A DNA stretch of 64,000 nt from Escherichia coli. GTDB lineage: Bacteria; Pseudomonadota; Gammaproteobacteria; Enterobacterales; Enterobacteriaceae. Position 1 is the stretch's first letter; every line of letters begins with the position of its first letter. The stretch is taken from NCBI RefSeq assembly GCF_001677475.2, contig NZ_CP015229.1. The stretch is one strand, 5' to 3'. The position numbers and the translations under genes are program-made. The notes beneath the pieces are model-generated. The model saw only the letters and a list, made by a program, of their open reading frames with translations, had not been told where the DNA came from and did not search any database. This document shows positions 1,394 through 47,515 of this stretch, piece after piece.

Positions 1394-2949
1394 GCGTTTA
1401 GCCCCTTTTTCTGCAACTGAGTCTGTGCAACGGTGCTGGCCCATAGCGCCGCCTGTGCATTGCTGCTGGCGATGATGACCCCTGCATTTTGTAGTGCGCT
1501 TATCTGCTGGCTGCGTATTTGCGGATCAGCTTCCGTTCCGCAAACGTGCGCAATCAGCAACGGTGCGTTATTCATGTCGATGTGTGAAAGTTGGTCCAGT
1601 AATTCGCTGGCAGGCGTCGTGGAAGCGCCATAACCAAGTACCAGGTCGAATAACACGACGGCAGTGTGTGAGTCGTTGAGTTCGTTGAGCAGACGTTGAT
1701 TGCGCAGAGTCGGATCGATCATTGGATGCGGTTTGCCACGGGTGAAATCATCGTCGCCCATATCGATCAACGTGTGATCTTCGCTTTGCCAGATATTTGC
1801 CAGAGCACGATTACCCGCAACTGGCGTATTGGAAGCTGCGCTGAATCCCTTTTGTTGGCAGATAAGTTGCGCTTCGTAGCAGAAGGTTCCTCCGGCGAAA
1901 ACACCGCGTATCGCCTGGCGATGGGCTGGCAGGCGCTGGCAGGCGTTTTGTAACATTGTGAGATCGTCGCAGGGTACATCGGTTTCGACAGCCGGAAATG
2001 GCTGAGCATTCAGTAACGCCACAGCGATGTCGGCGGCGCTGGCAAGTGTGGTGGCGGCAGTGATATTGGGACGTGCCAGATCATGCGGATTCGCCCCGAG
2101 GAAATTCACCACCACGGGTTTTCCACAAGCCTCGGCGCGCTCCAGAATAGTCCGGGCAACGATCGGTGAAGGCGGTTTTGAAATAAGCACAATCACGCGA
2201 GTTTCATCGTCTTGCGCCAGCGCATCTAAAGCGAAGAGCATCGATATTCCACTAATCTCTTCACTGAGATCATGTCCGCCTGTTCCCAACGCCTGAGAAA
2301 TACCCGCTCCGAGCTGGTCGATTCGGCAAGTCACTTCCTGTAGCCCGGTGCCTGACGCGCCAATAACACCAATCGCTCCACGTTTCACCACATTGGCGAA
2401 GCCTAACGGAATGCCGTTAACGATGGCGGTTCCACAGTCAGGTCCCATTACGATGCGCTGACGTTCTCGGGCAAGTGTTTTGATGGATTTTTCCTGCGCG
2501 ATACTGACGTTATCGCTGAACATCATCACGTTCATTCCGAGGTTTAACGCTTTAATTGCTTCGGCGGCGGCGTAGTCTCCCGGTACAGAAATGAGTGCCA
2601 GGTTGGCTTCGGGTTCGGCTTCCAGTGCCATTTCCAGGCTGACCTTTTCCGGTGTTTTAATGCCACTACCCGTTTCATCATCGGGTTTGCTGGTCAGACG
2701 TTGCTGGGCCAGTACCAGTGCTTCATTGCAAATATCTTCTTCACCCATGACTGCAATCACTAAATCATTGGGACTGGCGTTGATTTCGTTACCCAGACCC
2801 ACATCGCGCAATTGTTCGAGATTATTGGGTGTTCCCATGACGACCGAAGCCTGTTGAATACCGGGCAATTTGCTGATTTGCGCGGAAATCTGCATCAGAG
2901 AAACCGAGTCCTGATAAAGATTGCTGAGAACTTTATGTTTAACTTTCAT
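1390..2949 (-). CDS. FdrA-like protein (succinyl-CoA synthetase alpha-like CoA-binding fold)
   Basis: 519 aa ORF; N-terminal YQDSVSLMQIS motif typical of FdrA/YahF; glycine-rich GVIGASGTG segment. Confidence 0.8.
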   Translation of the reverse strand: MKVKHKVLSNLYQDSVSLMQISAQISKLPGIQQASVVMGTPNNLEQLRDVGLGNEINASPNDLVIAVMGEEDICNEALVLAQQRLTSKPDDETGSGIKTPEKVSLEMALEAEPEANLALISVPGDYAAAEAIKALNLGMNVMMFSDNVSIAQEKSIKTLARERQRIVMGPDCGTAIVNGIPLGFANVVKRGAIGVIGASGTGLQEVTCRIDQLGAGISQALGTGGHDLSEEISGISMLFALDALAQDDETRVIVLISKPPSPIVARTILERAEACGKPVVVNFLGANPHDLARPNITAATTLASAADIAVALLNAQPFPAVETDVPCDDLTMLQNACQRLPAHRQAIRGVFAGGTFCYEAQLICQQKGFSAASNTPVAGNRALANIWQSEDHTLIDMGDDDFTRGKPHPMIDPTLRNQRLLNELNDSHTAVVLFDLVLGYGASTTPASELLDQLSHIDMNNAPLLIAHVCGTEADPQIRSQQISALQNAGVIIASSNAQAALWASTVAQTQLQKKGLNA

Positions 2950-3043
2950 GCTGTTACGCCTGTTTCATTCCGCCCGATAGTAAAATTCGGGCAAAGCATC
3001 CCCGTGTAGCGCCATAAATGAGCTACAGGAGAAAAGGTTGAAA

Positions 3044-3904
3044 TCAATTCATGGTGTTCAGGGTTCGAAAGCCATGCAGCATTCCTGCAAGGCAATCCAC
3101 TCCTGACGTTGCGCCAAATTGCATGACCTGTTCTGCACAGGATGCGATTGTCATTGCCGATGCGCCCCCAACCAGTTGTGCGAGTAACTGGCAAATCGGT
3201 TCTGAAAAATGCCCCCGAAGCGCACGCTCCAGATAATGACGACTGATGTCAGTGGTGTTGTGCGCATGTTGATCAATTGCCTGCTGCAACCGGTATTGAT
3301 GAGCGGCAAGTGGTGCAGGTAGTTGCCATAACCAGAGCGCTGCCAGATAGCCCAACAAATAGTCATCTCCATCGGGAGTTAAGCCTTTGCCAAAGCCGAT
3401 CAGTTGTGGCACCTGGCGTTCCAGCGCATCTGGATGTTCCATAATCTCTAATCCCTGGTGCGTGAGACTATCCGGCAGGTGCAATGTGCTTTGAACGTTA
3501 TGCTCCAGACAAAATAAAAGCCGTTGCGATGCCATCGTTGGGTAGTGCTGGAAAACCAAAGGGAACGCCTCAAGTGTCAGCCTTCCTCCCACAAATGACG
3601 GCTGCCAGAGCGTTGCGTTATCGAGAGCCACACAAAAGCGAGGTGTCTGCAGCAAGCCTGGGGTTAACTGAACGGGATCGGAATGGGCAATCTCTCTTCG
3701 CCAGTCCCAACGCTTAGGCAGCCAGACTCTGGCAGCATCAGGGAGATTCAGATACGTTTGCGCACACAACAGGGTGATGAATGTTCCCGCTTCTGAATAC
3801 AGATTTACCGCATGTTTAAAAGCACTGTGCAGACGTAAATCTTGCGTTTCATTCCACGGGAAAAGATATCCCAACGACGATGCGCAAAGCGTAACCTGTA
3901 CCAT
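3044..3904 (-). CDS. Putative YlbF/YahE-like protein (DUF2877 suggested)
   Basis: 286 aa ORF with a GKGLTPDGDD motif, sitting immediately upstream of the fdrA-like gene as in the fdrA-ylbE-ylbF and yahEFG paralogue sets. Confidence 0.5.
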   Translation of the reverse strand: MVQVTLCASSLGYLFPWNETQDLRLHSAFKHAVNLYSEAGTFITLLCAQTYLNLPDAARVWLPKRWDWRREIAHSDPVQLTPGLLQTPRFCVALDNATLWQPSFVGGRLTLEAFPLVFQHYPTMASQRLLFCLEHNVQSTLHLPDSLTHQGLEIMEHPDALERQVPQLIGFGKGLTPDGDDYLLGYLAALWLWQLPAPLAAHQYRLQQAIDQHAHNTTDISRHYLERALRGHFSEPICQLLAQLVGGASAMTIASCAEQVMQFGATSGVDCLAGMLHGFRTLNTMN

Positions 3905-3909
3905 CGGTG

Positions 3910-4578
3910 TTAGCCTTCCAGGCCTGCAATAATGGCTTTGGAATCAGTAACCCAACCGAAAATGGCACCTTGTGCTTTGATCATCTCCAGGGCGTATTTC
4001 TGGAATTCCGGGAAATAGGAGCCAACGCAATCTTCCGGGATGATGCACTCATAACCACGATCATTCGCTTCGCGCACGGTGGTGGTCACACAGACTTCCG
4101 TGGTTACTCCGCAAACAATCAGCGTTTTGATGCCGTGGTTTTGCAAAATCAGATGTAAGTCGGTTTGATAAAAAGCGCCTTTGCCGGGTTTATCAATCAC
4201 CGGTTCGCCTGCGACCGGGTACAGTTCAGGAATGATGTCATGACCTGCTTCACCTCTGACCAGAATGCGCCCCATCGGGCCTGCTTCACCAATAAAGGTT
4301 TTACCGCCGCGCGTCAGTTTGGCTGGTGGGCAGTCGCTTAAGTCTGCACGATGGCCTTCACGGGTATGAATAACCATAATTCCTTTTTGACGTGCGGCTG
4401 CCAGCACCTCTGTACATGGAGCGATAGCCGTGCGTACCAGTGAAACATCATTGCCCAGTGCCTCACCGAAGCCCCCTGCTTCGACAAAGTCACGCTGCAT
4501 GTCGATCATGACCAGTGCAGTTGTGCGCGGATCAAAAGGTAATTCAAAGGGTTGAGCCTGAAAAATGGATTGCGTCAT
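3910..4578 (-). CDS. Isochorismatase-family cysteine hydrolase (amidohydrolase-like)
   Basis: 222 aa ORF; MIDMQRDF aspartate motif near the N-terminus and LIVCGVTTEVCV cysteine motif; 5 nt from the next gene. Confidence 0.75.
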   Translation of the reverse strand: MTQSIFQAQPFELPFDPRTTALVMIDMQRDFVEAGGFGEALGNDVSLVRTAIAPCTEVLAAARQKGIMVIHTREGHRADLSDCPPAKLTRGGKTFIGEAGPMGRILVRGEAGHDIIPELYPVAGEPVIDKPGKGAFYQTDLHLILQNHGIKTLIVCGVTTEVCVTTTVREANDRGYECIIPEDCVGSYFPEFQKYALEMIKAQGAIFGWVTDSKAIIAGLEG

Positions 4579-4835
4579 GGTAAATCTCCTGTCTGATGTT
4601 TAAACGATCCAGTTGTTCTGAGAACGAGTATTCAGGAGAAAAGCGGCACAAAACAGGAAAAAAGTTTGCCGCACAGCAACGAAATTTTTGCATTCAGCAG
4701 GCGGCGTGATGACGAATGTGAAGGGGGTCAAATCGTGGCATACAGCAACAAAATTTTTGATGCTGTATGGTTTTGAGTTTAAAAAAATCGTTGAAATTGT
4801 GTGAGCTTAAGCACCTGAGTTAGCTGCTATGGTGG

Positions 4836-5645
4836 TTATTTTTTAACACCATACTGCTTAAACCACTCCAGCATACGCTGCCAGCCATCTTTTGCAGATG
4901 CGGCATGATAGCTCGGGCGATAATCAGCGTTGAATGCATGCCCGGCGTCCGGGTACACGATAATCTCTGCTTTCGCATTAGCAGCCCGCAGCGCCTGGCG
5001 CATGGTTTCAACGCTCTCCTGCGGAATGCTGTTATCCTGACCACCATATAAGCCGAGAACCGGCGCGTTAAGATCGGTTGCGATATCAACAGGTTGTTTC
5101 GGTGAATTCAGCGACTTATCGCCTGTCAGTTTGCCGTACCATGCCACCGCCGCTTTCAGTTGCGGGTTATGCGCAGCATACAGCCAGGTGATACGTCCAC
5201 CCCAGCAGAATCCGGTGATCATTAAACGATGAACATCGCCGCCGTTGCGGGAAGCCCAACTGGCGACATGATCGAGATCGGCCAGCACCTGCGAGTCAGG
5301 CACTTTTGCTACCAGACCGCTAAGCAACGTGGGGATATCGGCAAAATCATTCGGATCGCCTTCGCGGAAGTAAAGTTCAGGTGCGATAGCCAGATATCCC
5401 TCCAGCGCCAGACGGCGACAAATGTCGCGGATATGTTCATGCACGCCAAAAATTTCCTGCACTACAATGACCACTGGCAGTGGGCCATCGCTTTGCTTTG
5501 GTCTGGCATGGTAAGCAGGCATGTTATCCCCTTGTGAGGGGATAGAGGTGAAGCCCGCCGCAATCGCGTCGTCCGGGGTCTGAACGATGGTCGAAGCGAG
5601 AGGCGATGCAGCAGGTGCAAATCCAGATTGTTGTGTTGTTGCCAT
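4836..5645 (-). CDS. ysgA: Dienelactone hydrolase-family protein
   Basis: ORF 4836-5711; start placed at internal MATTQQSGF (about 270 aa); position upstream of udp matches K-12. Confidence 0.8.
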   Translation of the reverse strand: MATTQQSGFAPAASPLASTIVQTPDDAIAAGFTSIPSQGDNMPAYHARPKQSDGPLPVVIVVQEIFGVHEHIRDICRRLALEGYLAIAPELYFREGDPNDFADIPTLLSGLVAKVPDSQVLADLDHVASWASRNGGDVHRLMITGFCWGGRITWLYAAHNPQLKAAVAWYGKLTGDKSLNSPKQPVDIATDLNAPVLGLYGGQDNSIPQESVETMRQALRAANAKAEIIVYPDAGHAFNADYRPSYHAASAKDGWQRMLEWFKQYGVKK

Positions 5646-5765
5646 GGTATTCTCCGTACCCTTATAAAAATGTTGCGCAATGTTAACTATAGTCAGCATG
5701 CAACAAATCACATTGCCTGAATCGGCTCATCTTTTATGCAGTCCTGCAGAATGAAGAGTGATTTA

Positions 5766-5833
5766 TGTGATTTGCATCACTTTTGGTGGGTAAATTTATG
5801 CAACGCATTTGCGTCATGGTGATGAGTATCACG
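5766..5833 (+). promoter_or_regulatory. udp promoter region with two CRP-like sites about 52 bp apart
   Basis: TGTGAtttgcaTCACt at 5766-5781 and GTGAtgagtaTCAC at 5818-5833, upstream of udp. Confidence 0.6.
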
Positions 5834-5906
5834 AAAAAATGTTAAACCCTTCGGTAAAGTGTCTTTTTGCTTCTTCTGACTAAACCGATTCACAGAGGAG
5901 TTGTAT

Positions 5907-6668
5907 ATGTCCAAGTCTGATGTTTTTCATCTCGGCCTCACTAAAAACGATTTACAAGGGGCTACGCTTGCCATCGTCCCTGGCGACCCGGATCGTGTGG
6001 AAAAGATCGCCGCGCTGATGGATAAGCCGGTTAAGCTGGCATCTCACCGCGAATTCACCACCTGGCGTGCAGAGCTGGATGGTAAACCTGTTATCGTCTG
6101 CTCTACCGGTATCGGCGGCCCGTCTACCTCTATTGCTGTTGAAGAGCTGGCACAGCTGGGCATTCGCACCTTCCTGCGTATCGGTACAACGGGCGCTATT
6201 CAGCCGCATATTAATGTGGGTGATGTCCTGGTTACCACGGCGTCTGTCCGTCTGGATGGCGCGAGCCTGCACTTCGCACCGCTGGAATTCCCGGCTGTCG
6301 CTGATTTCGAATGTACGACTGCGCTGGTTGAGGCTGCGAAATCCATCGGCGCGACGACTCACGTTGGCGTGACGGCTTCTTCTGATACCTTCTACCCAGG
6401 TCAGGAACGTTACGATACTTACTCTGGTCGCGTAGTTCGTCACTTTAAAGGTTCTATGGAAGAGTGGCAGGCGATGGGCGTAATGAACTATGAAATGGAA
6501 TCTGCAACCCTGCTGACCATGTGTGCAAGTCAGGGTCTACGTGCCGGTATGGTAGCGGGTGTTATCGTTAACCGCACCCAGCAAGAGATCCCGAATGCTG
6601 AGACGATGAAACAAACTGAAAGCCAAGCGGTGAAAATCGTGGTGGAAGCGGCGCGTCGTCTGCTGTAA
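5907..6668 (+). CDS. udp: Uridine phosphorylase
   Basis: [36 protein letters not shown]-terminus; about 253 aa. Confidence 0.95.
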
Positions 6669-6686
6669 TCCTCTTCTCCTGTCTGA

Positions 6687-6717
6687 AGGCCGACGCGTTC
6701 GGCCTTTTGTATTTTTG
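6687..6717 (+). terminator. Intrinsic terminator after udp
   Basis: aaggccgacgcgttcggcctt hairpin followed by a T-rich tract. Confidence 0.7.
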
Positions 6718-6808
6718 CGTAGCGCCTCGCAGGAAATGCCTTTCCAACTGGACGTTTGTACAGCACAATTCTATTTTGTGCGGGTAAGTTGTTGCGTCAG
6801 GAGGCGTT

Positions 6809-8236
6809 GTGGATTTCTCAATCATGGTTTACGCAGTTATTGCGTTGGTGGGTGTGGCAATTGGCTGGCTGTTTGCCAGTTATCAACATGCGCAGCAAAA
6901 AGCCGAGCAATTAGCTGAACGTGAAGAGATGGTCGCGGAGTTAAGCGCGGCAAAACAACAAATTACCCAAAGTGAGCACTGGCGCGCTGAGTGCGAGTTA
7001 CTCAATAACGAAGTGCGCAGCCTGCAAAGTATTAACACCTCTCTGGAGGCCGATCTGCGTGAAGTAACCACGCGGATGGAAGCCGCACAGCAACATGCTG
7101 ACGATAAAATTCGCCAGATGATTAACAGCGAGCAGCGCCTCAGTGAGCAGTTTGAAAACCTCGCCAACCGTATTTTTGAGCACAGCAATCGCCGGGTTGA
7201 TGAGCAAAACCGTCAGAGTCTGAACAGCCTGTTGTCGCCGCTACGTGAACAACTGGACGGTTTCCGCCGTCAGGTTCAGGACAGCTTCGGTAAAGAAGCA
7301 CAAGAACGCCATACCCTGACCCACGAAATTCGCAATCTCCAGCAACTCAACGCGCAAATGGCCCAGGAGGCGATCAACCTGACGCGCGCGCTGAAAGGCG
7401 ACAATAAAACTCAGGGCAACTGGGGCGAGGTAGTATTGACGCGGGTGCTGGAGGCTTCCGGTCTGCGTGAAGGGTATGAATATGAAACCCAGGTCAGCAT
7501 CGAAAATGACGCCCGCTCGCGGATGCAGCCGGATGTCATCGTGCGGCTGCCGCAGGGAAAAGATGTGGTGATCGACGCCAAAATGACGCTGGTCGCCTAT
7601 GAACGCTATTTTAACGCCGATGACGACTACACCCGCGAAAGCGCGCTACAGGAACATATCGCGTCGGTGCGTAACCATATCCGTTTGCTGGGACGCAAAG
7701 ATTATCAACAGCTGCCGGGGCTGCGAACCCTGGATTACGTGCTGATGTTTATTCCCGTTGAACCCGCTTTTTTACTGGCGCTTGACCGCCAGCCGGAGCT
7801 GATCACCGAAGCGTTGAAAAACAATATCATGCTGGTTAGCCCGACCACGCTGCTGGTGGCGCTGCGCACTATCGCCAACCTCTGGCGCTATGAGCATCAA
7901 AGTCGTAACGCCCAGAAAATAGCCGATCACGCCAGCAAGCTGTACGACAAGATGCGTTTGTTCGTCGATGACATGTCAGCGATTGGTCAAAGTCTCGACA
8001 AAGCGCAGGATAACTACCGCCAGGCAATGAAAAAACTCTCTTCAGGTCGCGGAAATGTGCTGGCGCAGGCAGAAGCGTTCCGCGGTTTAGGAGTAGAAAT
8101 TAAACGCGAGATTAATCCGGATTTGGCTGAACAGGCGGTGAGCCAGGATGAAGAGTATCGACTTCGGTCGGTTCCGGAGCAGCCGAATGATGAAGCTTAT
8201 CAACGCGATGATGAATATAATCAGCAGTCGCGCTAG
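6809..8236 (+). CDS. rmuC: DNA recombination protein RmuC
   Basis: 475 aa ORF with N-terminal membrane anchor and long coiled-coil region; conserved position. Confidence 0.9.
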   Translation: MDFSIMVYAVIALVGVAIGWLFASYQHAQQKAEQLAEREEMVAELSAAKQQITQSEHWRAECELLNNEVRSLQSINTSLEADLREVTTRMEAAQQHADDKIRQMINSEQRLSEQFENLANRIFEHSNRRVDEQNRQSLNSLLSPLREQLDGFRRQVQDSFGKEAQERHTLTHEIRNLQQLNAQMAQEAINLTRALKGDNKTQGNWGEVVLTRVLEASGLREGYEYETQVSIENDARSRMQPDVIVRLPQGKDVVIDAKMTLVAYERYFNADDDYTRESALQEHIASVRNHIRLLGRKDYQQLPGLRTLDYVLMFIPVEPAFLLALDRQPELITEALKNNIMLVSPTTLLVALRTIANLWRYEHQSRNAQKIADHASKLYDKMRLFVDDMSAIGQSLDKAQDNYRQAMKKLSSGRGNVLAQAEAFRGLGVEIKREINPDLAEQAVSQDEEYRLRSVPEQPNDEAYQRDDEYNQQSR

Positions 8237-47364: not shown

Positions 47365-47515
47365 ATGACCTTTGGATAACCCTTTTTATGCTCCGTGAAA
47401 GCGATCACAAAGGGACTCTGCAATACTTGTTTGCGGAGGATGTTTGTGATCCTGTTTTGTAGTGCGATTAATCCGTGTACAATAACGCGCTATTTCTAAT
47501 GCCTGAGGCAAAGTT

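What the first reader, a model, noticed from the sequence alone, without database searches (positions are those of the whole stretch)
5766..5833. Tandem CRP-like sites at the udp promoter with CytR-type spacing
Two sites matching TGTGA-N6-TCAC lie 52 bp apart centre to centre, the arrangement used by CytR/CRP-regulated nucleoside catabolism promoters. This is expected biology and supports the udp call.
Basis: partly seen in the sequence, partly recalled or inferred. Interest (0 to 1): 0.15.

Follow-up and report, generated by a model that had tools for sequence, protein, structure and literature searches.

The report
Known CRP/CytR-controlled udp promoter
The two sites are real and are the long-characterised CRP-CytR-CRP control region of the Escherichia coli uridine phosphorylase (udp) promoter, so the finding is correct but ordinary.

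Summary
TGTGATTTGCATCACT (5766-5781) and GGTGATGAGTATCACG (5818-5833) lie in the ysgA/udp intergenic region of an E. coli genome, with centres 52 bp apart. The proximal site starts GGTGA, so it matches 8 of the 9 specified bases rather than all 9.

- The promoter is base-for-base identical to K-12 from 5759 to the udp ATG.
- The published natural udp CytR operator oligonucleotide matches 5790-5821 exactly, between the two sites.
- A published CRP ChIP-seq peak in ETEC lists the same two sites at ysgA/udp.
- Cap-selected long reads in K-12 start the udp transcript at window 5863 and end it at 6710.
- The -10 hexamer TAAAGT (5855-5860) begins 29.5 bp after the proximal centre, which is class II geometry (about -41.5).

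Across 102 udp upstream regions, a CRP-like pair at 52/53 bp occurs in 37/41 Enterobacterales, 10/24 Vibrionales and 0/37 other taxa. Shuffles give 0.19 such regions.

Mechanism, from the literature: the proximal CRP activates transcription. CytR bound between the two CRP dimers blocks that activation until cytidine releases it.

Verdict: already known, low interest.

The parts
5763..5784 (.). Distal CRP site (22-mer TTATGTGATTTGCATCACTTTT; core 16-mer 5766-5781; centre 5773.5). It lies about -92.5/-93.5 from the geometric transcription start.
   Evidence: Sequence and exact motif match. The core half-sites are conserved while the N6 spacer varies across 29 Enterobacterales. Listed with one spacer difference under a CRP ChIP-seq peak in ETEC (PMC4287617).
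5797..5815 (.). CytR operator: left octamer TATGCAAC 5797-5804, spacer GCA 5805-5807, right octamer TTTGCGTC 5808-5815.
   Evidence: Lies inside the exact match (5790-5821) to the natural udp operator used for NMR and binding studies, which is described as having a 3-bp spacing with the left half-site the better match (bioRxiv 10.1101/2021.02.28.433298). ATG(C/T)AA and the TTT..TCA columns are conserved in Enterobacteriaceae.
5815..5836 (.). Proximal CRP site (22-mer CATGGTGATGAGTATCACGAAA; core 16-mer 5818-5833; centre 5825.5). It sits at the class II position.
   Evidence: Sequence and a one-mismatch motif hit. GTGA...TCACGAAA is the most conserved block of the alignment. Identical to the site listed under the ETEC CRP ChIP-seq peak.
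5855..5860 (+). -10 hexamer TAAAGT of the udp promoter. No recognisable -35 element: CGAAAA at 5832-5837 lies under the proximal CRP site.
   Evidence: A TA.AGT-type hexamer starts 29.5 bp after the proximal CRP centre in Enterobacterales and Vibrionaceae alike. The consensus sigma-70 scan finds no stand-alone promoter in 5500-6850, as expected for an activator-dependent promoter.
5863..5867 (+). Transcription start zone. The cap-mapped 5' end is at 5863 (K-12 4016387). The start expected from the -10 position is 5866-5867.
   Evidence: SMRT-Cappable-seq operon table: 4016387-4017234, forward, b3831, 76 and 50 reads in two conditions (PMC6131387, supplementary file 3). Coordinates were mapped through the gap-free alignment with K-12.
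5895..5900 (+). Shine-Dalgarno sequence GAGGAG of udp.
   Evidence: Sequence. AGGAG is conserved upstream of the ATG in the alignment.
5907..6668 (+). udp coding sequence (253 aa plus stop), encoding uridine phosphorylase.
   Evidence: NCBIfam NF008383 equivalog at 528.8 bits (cutoff 262) and TIGR01718 at 438.5 bits. 252/253 identical to K-12 Udp. RefSeq annotation of identical DNA.
6685..6717 (+). Intrinsic terminator of the monocistronic udp transcript. The mapped 3' end is at 6710.
   Evidence: Terminator-like hairpin plus T run. The SMRT-Cappable-seq 3' end at K-12 4017234 equals window 6710.
4836..5645 (-). ysgA (dienelactone hydrolase family), the divergent neighbour. Context only.
   Evidence: ORF list and RefSeq annotation of matching DNA.

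Best explanation
This is the udp promoter (udpP) of Escherichia coli, a cAMP-CRP-activated, CytR-repressed promoter of the nucleoside-catabolism regulon.

Shown here:
- The anatomy of the region.
- Its identity to K-12.
- Its conservation across species.
- Its agreement with published ChIP-seq, operator and transcript-end data.

Taken from the literature:
- cAMP-CRP bound at the proximal site (centre 5825.5, about -41.5) overlaps the missing -35 element and recruits RNA polymerase as a class II activator. It is the only CRP site needed for activation.
- A second CRP dimer binds the distal site 52 bp upstream, five helical turns away and on the same face of the DNA.
- CytR, a LacI-family dimer with weak intrinsic DNA affinity, binds the octamer pair TATGCAAC-GCA-TTTGCGTC (5797-5815) between them.
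- CytR is held there by protein-protein contacts with both CRP dimers. This masks CRP's activating surface, so the effect is anti-activation.
- Cytidine binding to CytR breaks the CytR-CRP cooperativity and restores activation.

The resulting transcript is monocistronic, running from about 5863-5867 to 6710.
For: - Sites and spacing.
- The intergenic region is present at >=95% identity in 5425 of 5426 complete E. coli genomes and is annotated ysgA/udp.
- Gap-free identity with K-12 across the promoter.
- Exact match of 5790-5821 to the published natural udp CytR operator.
- CRP ChIP-seq peak at ysgA/udp with these sites (PMC4287617).
- Cap-mapped start at 5863 and 3' end at 6710 (PMC6131387), matching the predicted terminator.
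- The 52/53-bp pair is present in 37/41 Enterobacterales and 10/24 Vibrionales but 0/37 other taxa. Shuffles give 0.19 and other spacings 0-3. This taxonomic range is the one reported for CytR (PMC3454398).
- Phylogenetic footprint: the CRP half-sites, the ATGCAA motif, the -10 hexamer and their spacing are conserved while the N6 spacers vary.
- The 30-bp gap between the two 22-mers equals the '30 or 31 bp' reported as conserved for udp (PMC3454398).
- The mechanism (anti-activation, one CRP site for activation, two for repression) is as summarised in PMC3454398 and PMC4581735, both citing Brikun et al. 1996.
- deoC, nupG and cdd in K-12 show the same cassette under the same scoring.
Against: - Nothing substantive contradicts this reading.
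- The cap-mapped 5' end (5863) is 3-4 nt upstream of the start expected from the -10 hexamer. Taken literally, that puts the proximal site at -37.5 rather than -41.5. That dataset clusters starts within 5 bp.
- I could not read the primary papers (Brikun 1996; Gavigan 1999), so the published start-site numbering is not verified here.
- No binding or expression experiment exists for this particular strain.
- The cytR and crp genes lie outside the window and were not checked.
Confidence: 0.96

Rival explanations
1. The two palindromic motifs are chance matches in an AT-rich intergenic region and have no regulatory role.
For: Single TGTGA-N6-TCAC-like sites are not enriched in the window: 19 found against 12.5 +/- 4.4 expected. 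The proximal site is imperfect.
Against: A pair of this quality and spacing arises in only 3 of 300 simulated windows. The pair is conserved at exactly 52/53 bp in 47 of 102 udp upstream regions, against 0.19 in shuffles. Only the half-site cores are conserved. A CRP ChIP-seq peak lies on these sites.
Confidence: 0.01
2. The sites, or at least the distal one, serve the divergent ysgA promoter instead of, or in addition to, udp. The distal site would act as a class I CRP site about 94 bp upstream of a putative ysgA start.
For: The region is shared by divergent genes, and the ChIP-seq table assigns the peak to 'ysgA / udp'. On the minus strand a TATAGT hexamer (5691-5686) would place the distal centre near -94.5. 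That position is my inference from the sequence.
Against: No ysgA start was found in the transcript table I could read, which may be truncated. The fixed distance of the proximal site to the udp -10 hexamer and ATG is conserved across genera. The literature attributes both sites to udp control. An additional role at ysgA is not excluded; an exclusive one is.
Confidence: 0.08
3. The tandem sites act as a purely synergistic class III CRP activator pair, without CytR involvement.
For: Two CRP sites near -41.5 and -93.5 is also a class III arrangement. This rests on general knowledge of CRP promoters.
Against: An exact copy of the characterised CytR operator lies between them. The literature states that only one CRP site takes part in activation at udp, while both are needed for CytR repression (PMC3454398). 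The pair architecture is confined to the taxa reported to have CytR.
Confidence: 0.03

Closest known systems
E. coli K-12 udp promoter (udpP): CRP1-CytO-CRP2 (Brikun et al. 1996, J Bacteriol 178:1614; Gavigan et al. 1999, JBC 274:16010; both cited but not readable here)
   Same: Identical sequence from 5759 through the udp ATG, with no indels. Identical CytR operator. Same flanking genes, ysgA and udp.
   Different: One substitution at 5758 (A here, G in K-12), 8 bp upstream of the distal core. Udp differs at one residue, Q240 for H. On the far side of ysgA the window carries extra genes that K-12 lacks. None of these touches the promoter.
deoP2 promoter of the deoCABD operon, the prototype CytR/CRP tandem-site promoter
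   Same: Two CRP-like sites, with a TGCAA-type CytR motif between them and a nucleoside-catabolism operon downstream. Measured here on K-12: the pair is 53 bp apart with 'atgcaaacttgtaag' between.
   Different: Spacing is 53 bp rather than 52. According to the literature the CytR half-sites are adjacent (0-bp spacer) in deoP2 and separated by 3 bp in udp. The CRP cores of deoP2 score lower (8/10 and 8/10).
nupG and cdd promoters (CytR regulon)
   Same: CRP-like pairs flank TTGCAA/GTTGCAT motifs.
   Different: The pairs found with my scoring are 50 bp apart. According to PMC3454398, two CRP sites take part in activation at these promoters, and cdd has three CRP sites. At udp only one site activates.
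Class II CRP-dependent promoters (for example galP1)
   Same: The proximal CRP site overlaps the -35 region, and its centre lies 29.5 bp upstream of the first base of the -10 hexamer, which corresponds to -41.5. There is no consensus -35 element.
   Different: udpP has an additional upstream CRP site and a CytR operator, which add repressor control.

Membership tests
CytR/cAMP-CRP-regulated promoter (CRP-CytO-CRP cassette) | Two CRP-binding sites roughly five helical turns apart (50-53 bp centre to centre). | tested here: met
   Centres at 5773.5 and 5825.5, 52 bp apart. The same scoring gives 53, 50 and 50 bp at K-12 deoC, nupG and cdd. The 30-bp gap between the 22-mers matches the '30 or 31 bp' reported for udp.
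CytR/cAMP-CRP-regulated promoter (CRP-CytO-CRP cassette) | A CytR operator (a pair of octamers related to GTTGCATT/AATGCAAC) lies between the CRP sites, within 5 nt of at least one of them and asymmetrically placed. | tested here: met
   TATGCAAC-GCA-TTTGCGTC at 5797-5815. The right octamer abuts the proximal 22-mer (5815-5836), and the left octamer is 12 bp from the distal 22-mer. Exact match to the published operator. The placement rule is quoted from PMC3454398.
CytR/cAMP-CRP-regulated promoter (CRP-CytO-CRP cassette) | CRP occupies the sites in vivo. | tested here: met
   By literature comparison only. A CRP ChIP-seq peak in ETEC H10407 at ysgA/udp lists an identical proximal site and a distal site differing by one spacer base (PMC4287617). 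Not measured in this strain.
CytR/cAMP-CRP-regulated promoter (CRP-CytO-CRP cassette) | Transcription is repressed by CytR in a CRP-dependent way and induced by cytidine. | not testable with these tools
   Reported for K-12 udp, whose promoter sequence is identical (Brikun 1996, as cited).
CytR/cAMP-CRP-regulated promoter (CRP-CytO-CRP cassette) | The regulated gene belongs to nucleoside uptake or catabolism. | tested here: met
   The downstream gene is uridine phosphorylase: NF008383 at 528.8 bits against a cutoff of 262, and 252/253 identical to K-12 Udp.
CytR/cAMP-CRP-regulated promoter (CRP-CytO-CRP cassette) | The genome encodes CytR and CRP. | not tested
   By my recollection of the K-12 map, cytR and crp lie outside the 64-kb window. 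The host is E. coli, where both genes are standard, but I did not check.
Class II CRP-dependent promoter | The CRP site is centred near -41.5 relative to the transcription start and overlaps a weak or absent -35 element. | tested here: met
   The -10 hexamer TAAAGT at 5855-5860 puts -41.5 at 5825.5. This geometry is conserved across Enterobacterales and Vibrionaceae. No consensus sigma-70 promoter is found. Caveat: the cap-mapped 5' end at 5863 would give -37.5, and that dataset clusters starts within 5 bp.

The most novel reading that the evidence does not exclude
The udp promoter may carry an additional, undescribed pyrimidine-sensing layer at initiation. Three observations raise the possibility:
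- A run of five T (5864-5868) sits exactly at the start zone.
- A T run of at least 4 at that position is kept in Escherichia, Citrobacter, Enterobacter, Serratia and Proteus.
- The cap-mapped 5' end (5863) lies 3-4 nt upstream of the geometric start.

Together these could reflect UTP-dependent start-site choice or reiterative transcription, as is known for the codBA, upp and pyrBI promoters (from my own knowledge of those systems). The evidence does not exclude this and does not support it beyond the sequence pattern. The T run is absent in Photorhabdus, Pantoea/Erwinia, Yersinia and Vibrio.
Probability: 0.06. Interest if true: 0.35.

Novelty: already known. Interest (0 to 1): 0.05.

Why it matters
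It matters little as a discovery. This is a textbook example of combinatorial control, in which an activator (CRP) also serves as the docking platform for a weak repressor (CytR). Confirming it has three uses:
- It anchors the annotation of the window as an E. coli ysgA-udp-rmuC-ubiE region.
- It validates the udp call and its monocistronic transcript.
- It shows that the first-stage reader can recognise a real regulatory architecture from sequence alone.

The cross-species tally (37/41 Enterobacterales, 10/24 Vibrionales, 0/37 others) independently reproduces the published comparative-genomics picture with a newer genome set.

Tried and rejected
**Papers not held**
- Brikun 1996 (PMC177846), Gavigan 1999 and Pedersen & Valentin-Hansen 1997 (PMC1169813). 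I therefore could not confirm the published numbering of the CRP sites. My recollection of -41.5/-93.5 or -40.5/-92.5 is memory only.

**Transcription-start datasets that gave nothing**
- Thomason 2015 is not held.
- The Cappable-seq supplements had no entry in range.
- Conway 2014 has no supplements held.
- The Kim 2012 table is cut before 4.0 Mb.
- Only SMRT-Cappable-seq gave a start.

**Other checks that led nowhere**
- The CRP ChIP-exo paper (PMC5957442) has no udp entry.
- A literature search on position numbers returned only noise.
- An Rfam scan of 5500-6900 at E<=1 found nothing. This removes a structured-RNA explanation for the conservation of the short leader.
- The consensus sigma-70 scan found no promoter. 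I read this as expected for an activator-dependent promoter, not as evidence against one.

**Errors corrected**
- I first placed the udp ATG at 5908, which caused a frame error. The correct position is 5907, so K-12 coordinate = window + 4010524.
- My first notebook entry has the ATG wrong by one base, and the second still gives the two ATGCAAC copies one base too high. The final note has the right values.

**Rejected explanations**
- Chance palindromes.
- A CRP-only class III activator pair.
- Exclusive use of the sites by ysgA.

Full report
**What is in the sequence.** The finding lies in the 261-bp intergenic region between a minus-strand gene ending its 5' side at 5645 and a plus-strand gene starting at 5907.
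- The distal motif is TGTGA-TTTGCA-TCAC-T at 5766-5781. It matches TGTGA-N6-TCAC exactly.
- The proximal motif is GGTGA-TGAGTA-TCAC-G at 5818-5833. It has one mismatch, G for T at the first base.
- Against the symmetric ten-base core TGTGA-N6-TCACA the two sites score 9/10 and 8/10.

**Is it more than chance?**
- Taken singly, no. Sites with up to one mismatch number 19 in the window, against 12.5 +/- 4.4 in shuffles.
- As a pair, yes. The window holds one pair scoring >=8/10 and >=9/10 with 50-55 bp spacing. Only 3 of 300 simulated windows with the same dinucleotide content hold any such pair.
- Conservation is far stronger evidence, and is described under "Independent evidence from other species" below.

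**Where the window comes from.**
- The 276-bp stretch 5640-5915 is found at >=95% identity in 5425 of 5426 complete E. coli genomes, always annotated ysgA | udp.
- It aligns without gaps to K-12 MG1655. The only difference is at 5758, so K-12 coordinate = window + 4010524.
- The downstream protein is uridine phosphorylase. NCBIfam NF008383 scores 528.8 bits against a cutoff of 262, and the protein is 252/253 identical to K-12 Udp.
- The experimental literature on the K-12 udp promoter therefore applies directly.

**Anatomy between and around the sites.**
- Extended to 22-mers, the CRP sites are 5763-5784 and 5815-5836. That leaves a 30-bp gap. [quoted passage not shown]
- Inside the gap lies TATGCAAC-GCA-TTTGCGTC (5797-5815).
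- The natural udp CytR operator used in NMR and binding work is 5'-GTAAATTTATGCAACGCATTTGCGTCATGGTG-3'. It is described as two 8-bp recognition motifs with a 3-bp spacing, the left one being the better match (bioRxiv 10.1101/2021.02.28.433298; also PMC9422980). It matches window 5790-5821 exactly.
- The operator abuts the proximal CRP site and is 12 bp from the distal one. This fits the published rule that a CytR operator lies within 5 nt of at least one CRP operator and is placed asymmetrically.
- Downstream, TAAAGT (5855-5860) is the only plausible -10 hexamer. The position 17 bp upstream of it (CGAAAA, 5832-5837) is not a -35 element and lies under the proximal CRP site.
- The consensus promoter scan finds nothing in the region, as expected for an activator-dependent promoter.
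- With -12 at 5855, the proximal centre is at -41.5 and the distal centre at -93.5. This is the class II position plus a site five helical turns further upstream.

**Transcript ends.**
- SMRT-Cappable-seq on K-12 (PMC6131387, supplementary file 3) lists a b3831 transcript from 4016387 to 4017234 in two growth conditions, with 76 and 50 reads. In window coordinates this is 5863 to 6710.
- The 3' end falls just after the hairpin at 6685-6707, at the start of the T-rich tail that the terminator scan found.
- The 5' end is 37.5 bp downstream of the proximal centre. That is 3-4 nt upstream of the start expected from the -10 hexamer.
- The dataset merges starts within 5 bp, and the start zone is a T5 run. 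I treat the difference as within method tolerance, but record it.
- A minor start at 4016185 (window 5661, 17 reads, one condition) is also listed.

**CRP occupancy.** Haycocks et al. 2015 (PMC4287617, Table 1) list a CRP ChIP-seq peak in ETEC H10407 assigned to ysgA/udp. Its predicted sites are GGTGATGAGTATCACG, identical to 5818-5833, and TGTGATTTGAATCACT, which differs from 5766-5781 at one spacer base.

**Independent evidence from other species.**
- I scanned one genome per species for a degenerate coding pattern of the Udp motif [16 protein letters not shown]. I then extracted 260 bp upstream of the start codon from 104 loci, 102 of them from other species.
- For pairs of CRP-like sites (each site >=7/10, at least one >=8/10), the histogram of spacings has 44 pairs at 52 bp and 8 at 53 bp. 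No other spacing exceeds 7.
- A 52/53-bp pair is present in 47 of 102 regions. Shuffled regions give 0.19 on average (maximum 2), and six control spacings give 0-3.
- By taxon the count is 37/41 Enterobacterales, 10/24 Vibrionales and 0/37 others (Shewanella, Pseudoalteromonas, Aeromonas, Psychromonas, Actinobacteria, Lachnospiraceae and more).
- That range is the one reported for CytR itself.
- I anchored an ungapped alignment of 29 Enterobacterales on the distal site. Conservation peaks at TGTGAT / TCAC, at ATG(C/T)AA, at TTT..TCA, at GTGA / TCACGAAA and at TTC.GTA.AGT. The N6 spacers and flanks vary freely.
- For example, a divergent E. coli lineage (L067) changes both spacers (TTTGCA to TTGGTG, and TGAGTA to TGGCTG) but none of the core bases.
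- The -10 hexamer keeps its 29.5-bp offset from the proximal centre even in Vibrionaceae.

**Comparison within the regulon.** The same scoring was applied to K-12 upstream regions.
- deoC: a pair at 53 bp with atgcaaacttgtaag between.
- nupG: a pair at 50 bp with ttttgcaa...gtttgcaa between.
- cdd: a pair at 50 bp with cgttgcata between.

"CytR-type spacing" is therefore a fair description.

**Mechanism.** The following steps come from the literature, not from my tests (PMC3454398; PMC4581735; both citing Brikun et al. 1996 and Valentin-Hansen et al. 1996).
- cAMP-CRP alone activates transcription. At udp only one CRP site takes part in activation; I take this to be the proximal one, from its class II position.
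- CytR binds its operator weakly on its own. It is stabilised by contacts with the two flanking CRP dimers.
- The resulting complex prevents CRP from activating RNA polymerase (anti-activation).
- Cytidine binding to CytR dissolves the cooperativity without abolishing CytR's intrinsic DNA binding.

What I have shown is the anatomy, its identity to the characterised promoter, its conservation, and its agreement with published ChIP-seq and transcript-end data.

**Rivals.**
- Chance palindromes are excluded by conservation and ChIP-seq.
- A CytR-free class III pair is contradicted by the exact CytR operator between the sites, and by the restriction of the pair to the taxa reported to have CytR.
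- Use of the distal site by the divergent ysgA promoter cannot be excluded as an additional role. I found no ysgA start in the data available.
- An Rfam scan found no RNA family in 5500-6900.

**Verdict.** This is the known udp promoter, so novelty is "already known" and interest is low.

Noticed in passing
window 5863-5880: The cap-mapped udp 5' end (K-12 4016387 = window 5863; PMC6131387) lies 3-4 nt upstream of the start expected from the -10 hexamer. The start zone is a T5 run (5864-5868) followed by GCTTCT. This T run is conserved in Escherichia, Citrobacter, Enterobacter, Serratia and Proteus, but not in Photorhabdus, Pantoea/Erwinia, Yersinia or Vibrio. It could be mapping tolerance, or a sign of start-site heterogeneity or slippage.
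   Followed up: partly
window 5661: A minor forward 5' end upstream of udp is listed in SMRT-Cappable-seq (K-12 4016185; 17 reads, one condition). It lies 16 bp from the ysgA start codon, and the transcript would read through both CRP sites. I saw no convincing -10 hexamer for it. TATAAA at 5663-5668 lies just downstream of the mapped end, not upstream.
   Followed up: no
window 5697-5712: A second copy of the CytR-type heptamer ATGCAAC lies at 5698-5704, exactly 100 bp upstream of the one in the operator (5798-5804). It sits next to a TCACA half-site (5708-5712), and together they form a weak 7/10 CRP-like 16-mer, CATGCAACAAATCACA. It is conserved in E. albertii with one change. It lies in the presumed ysgA promoter region and may be chance.
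   Followed up: partly
window 2600-4835: On the far side of ysgA, where K-12 and strain E2865 have metE (40 bp away in K-12), the window carries extra genes. These are an fdrA-like gene, a DUF2877/AllH-family gene (3044-3904, minus strand) and a cysteine hydrolase (3910-4578, minus strand). The hydrolase is closest to biuret amidohydrolase BiuH but scores 279 bits, below the cutoff of 370. This block occurs in 1559 of 5426 complete E. coli genomes, and on some plasmids. The best identity is only 96.4%, whereas the udp promoter has 100% matches. ysgA here is 269 aa against 271 aa in K-12, so its 3' end differs.
   Followed up: partly
window 4717-4815: Two further CRP-like 16-mers lie 83 bp apart in the gap upstream of the minus-strand cysteine hydrolase gene: TGTGAAGGGGGTCAAA at 4717 (9/10) and TGTGAGCTTAAGCACC at 4800 (8/10). 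This may indicate CRP control of the accessory block, or may be chance.
   Followed up: no
window 47394-47409: This is the only other exact TGTGA-N6-TCAC match in the window: TGTGATCGCTTTCAC on the minus strand, scoring 9/10 as CGTGAAAGCGATCACA. I did not examine its context.
   Followed up: no
L029, L018, L036, L075 (Yersinia artesiana, Acerihabitans, Rosenbergiella, Arsenophonus): These four Enterobacterales lack a detectable 52/53-bp CRP pair upstream of udp, as do 14 of 24 Vibrionales. Many of the Vibrio regions keep one strong site about 100-116 bp from the ATG. This could reflect loss or divergence of the distal site, or a threshold effect of my simple scoring.
   Followed up: no
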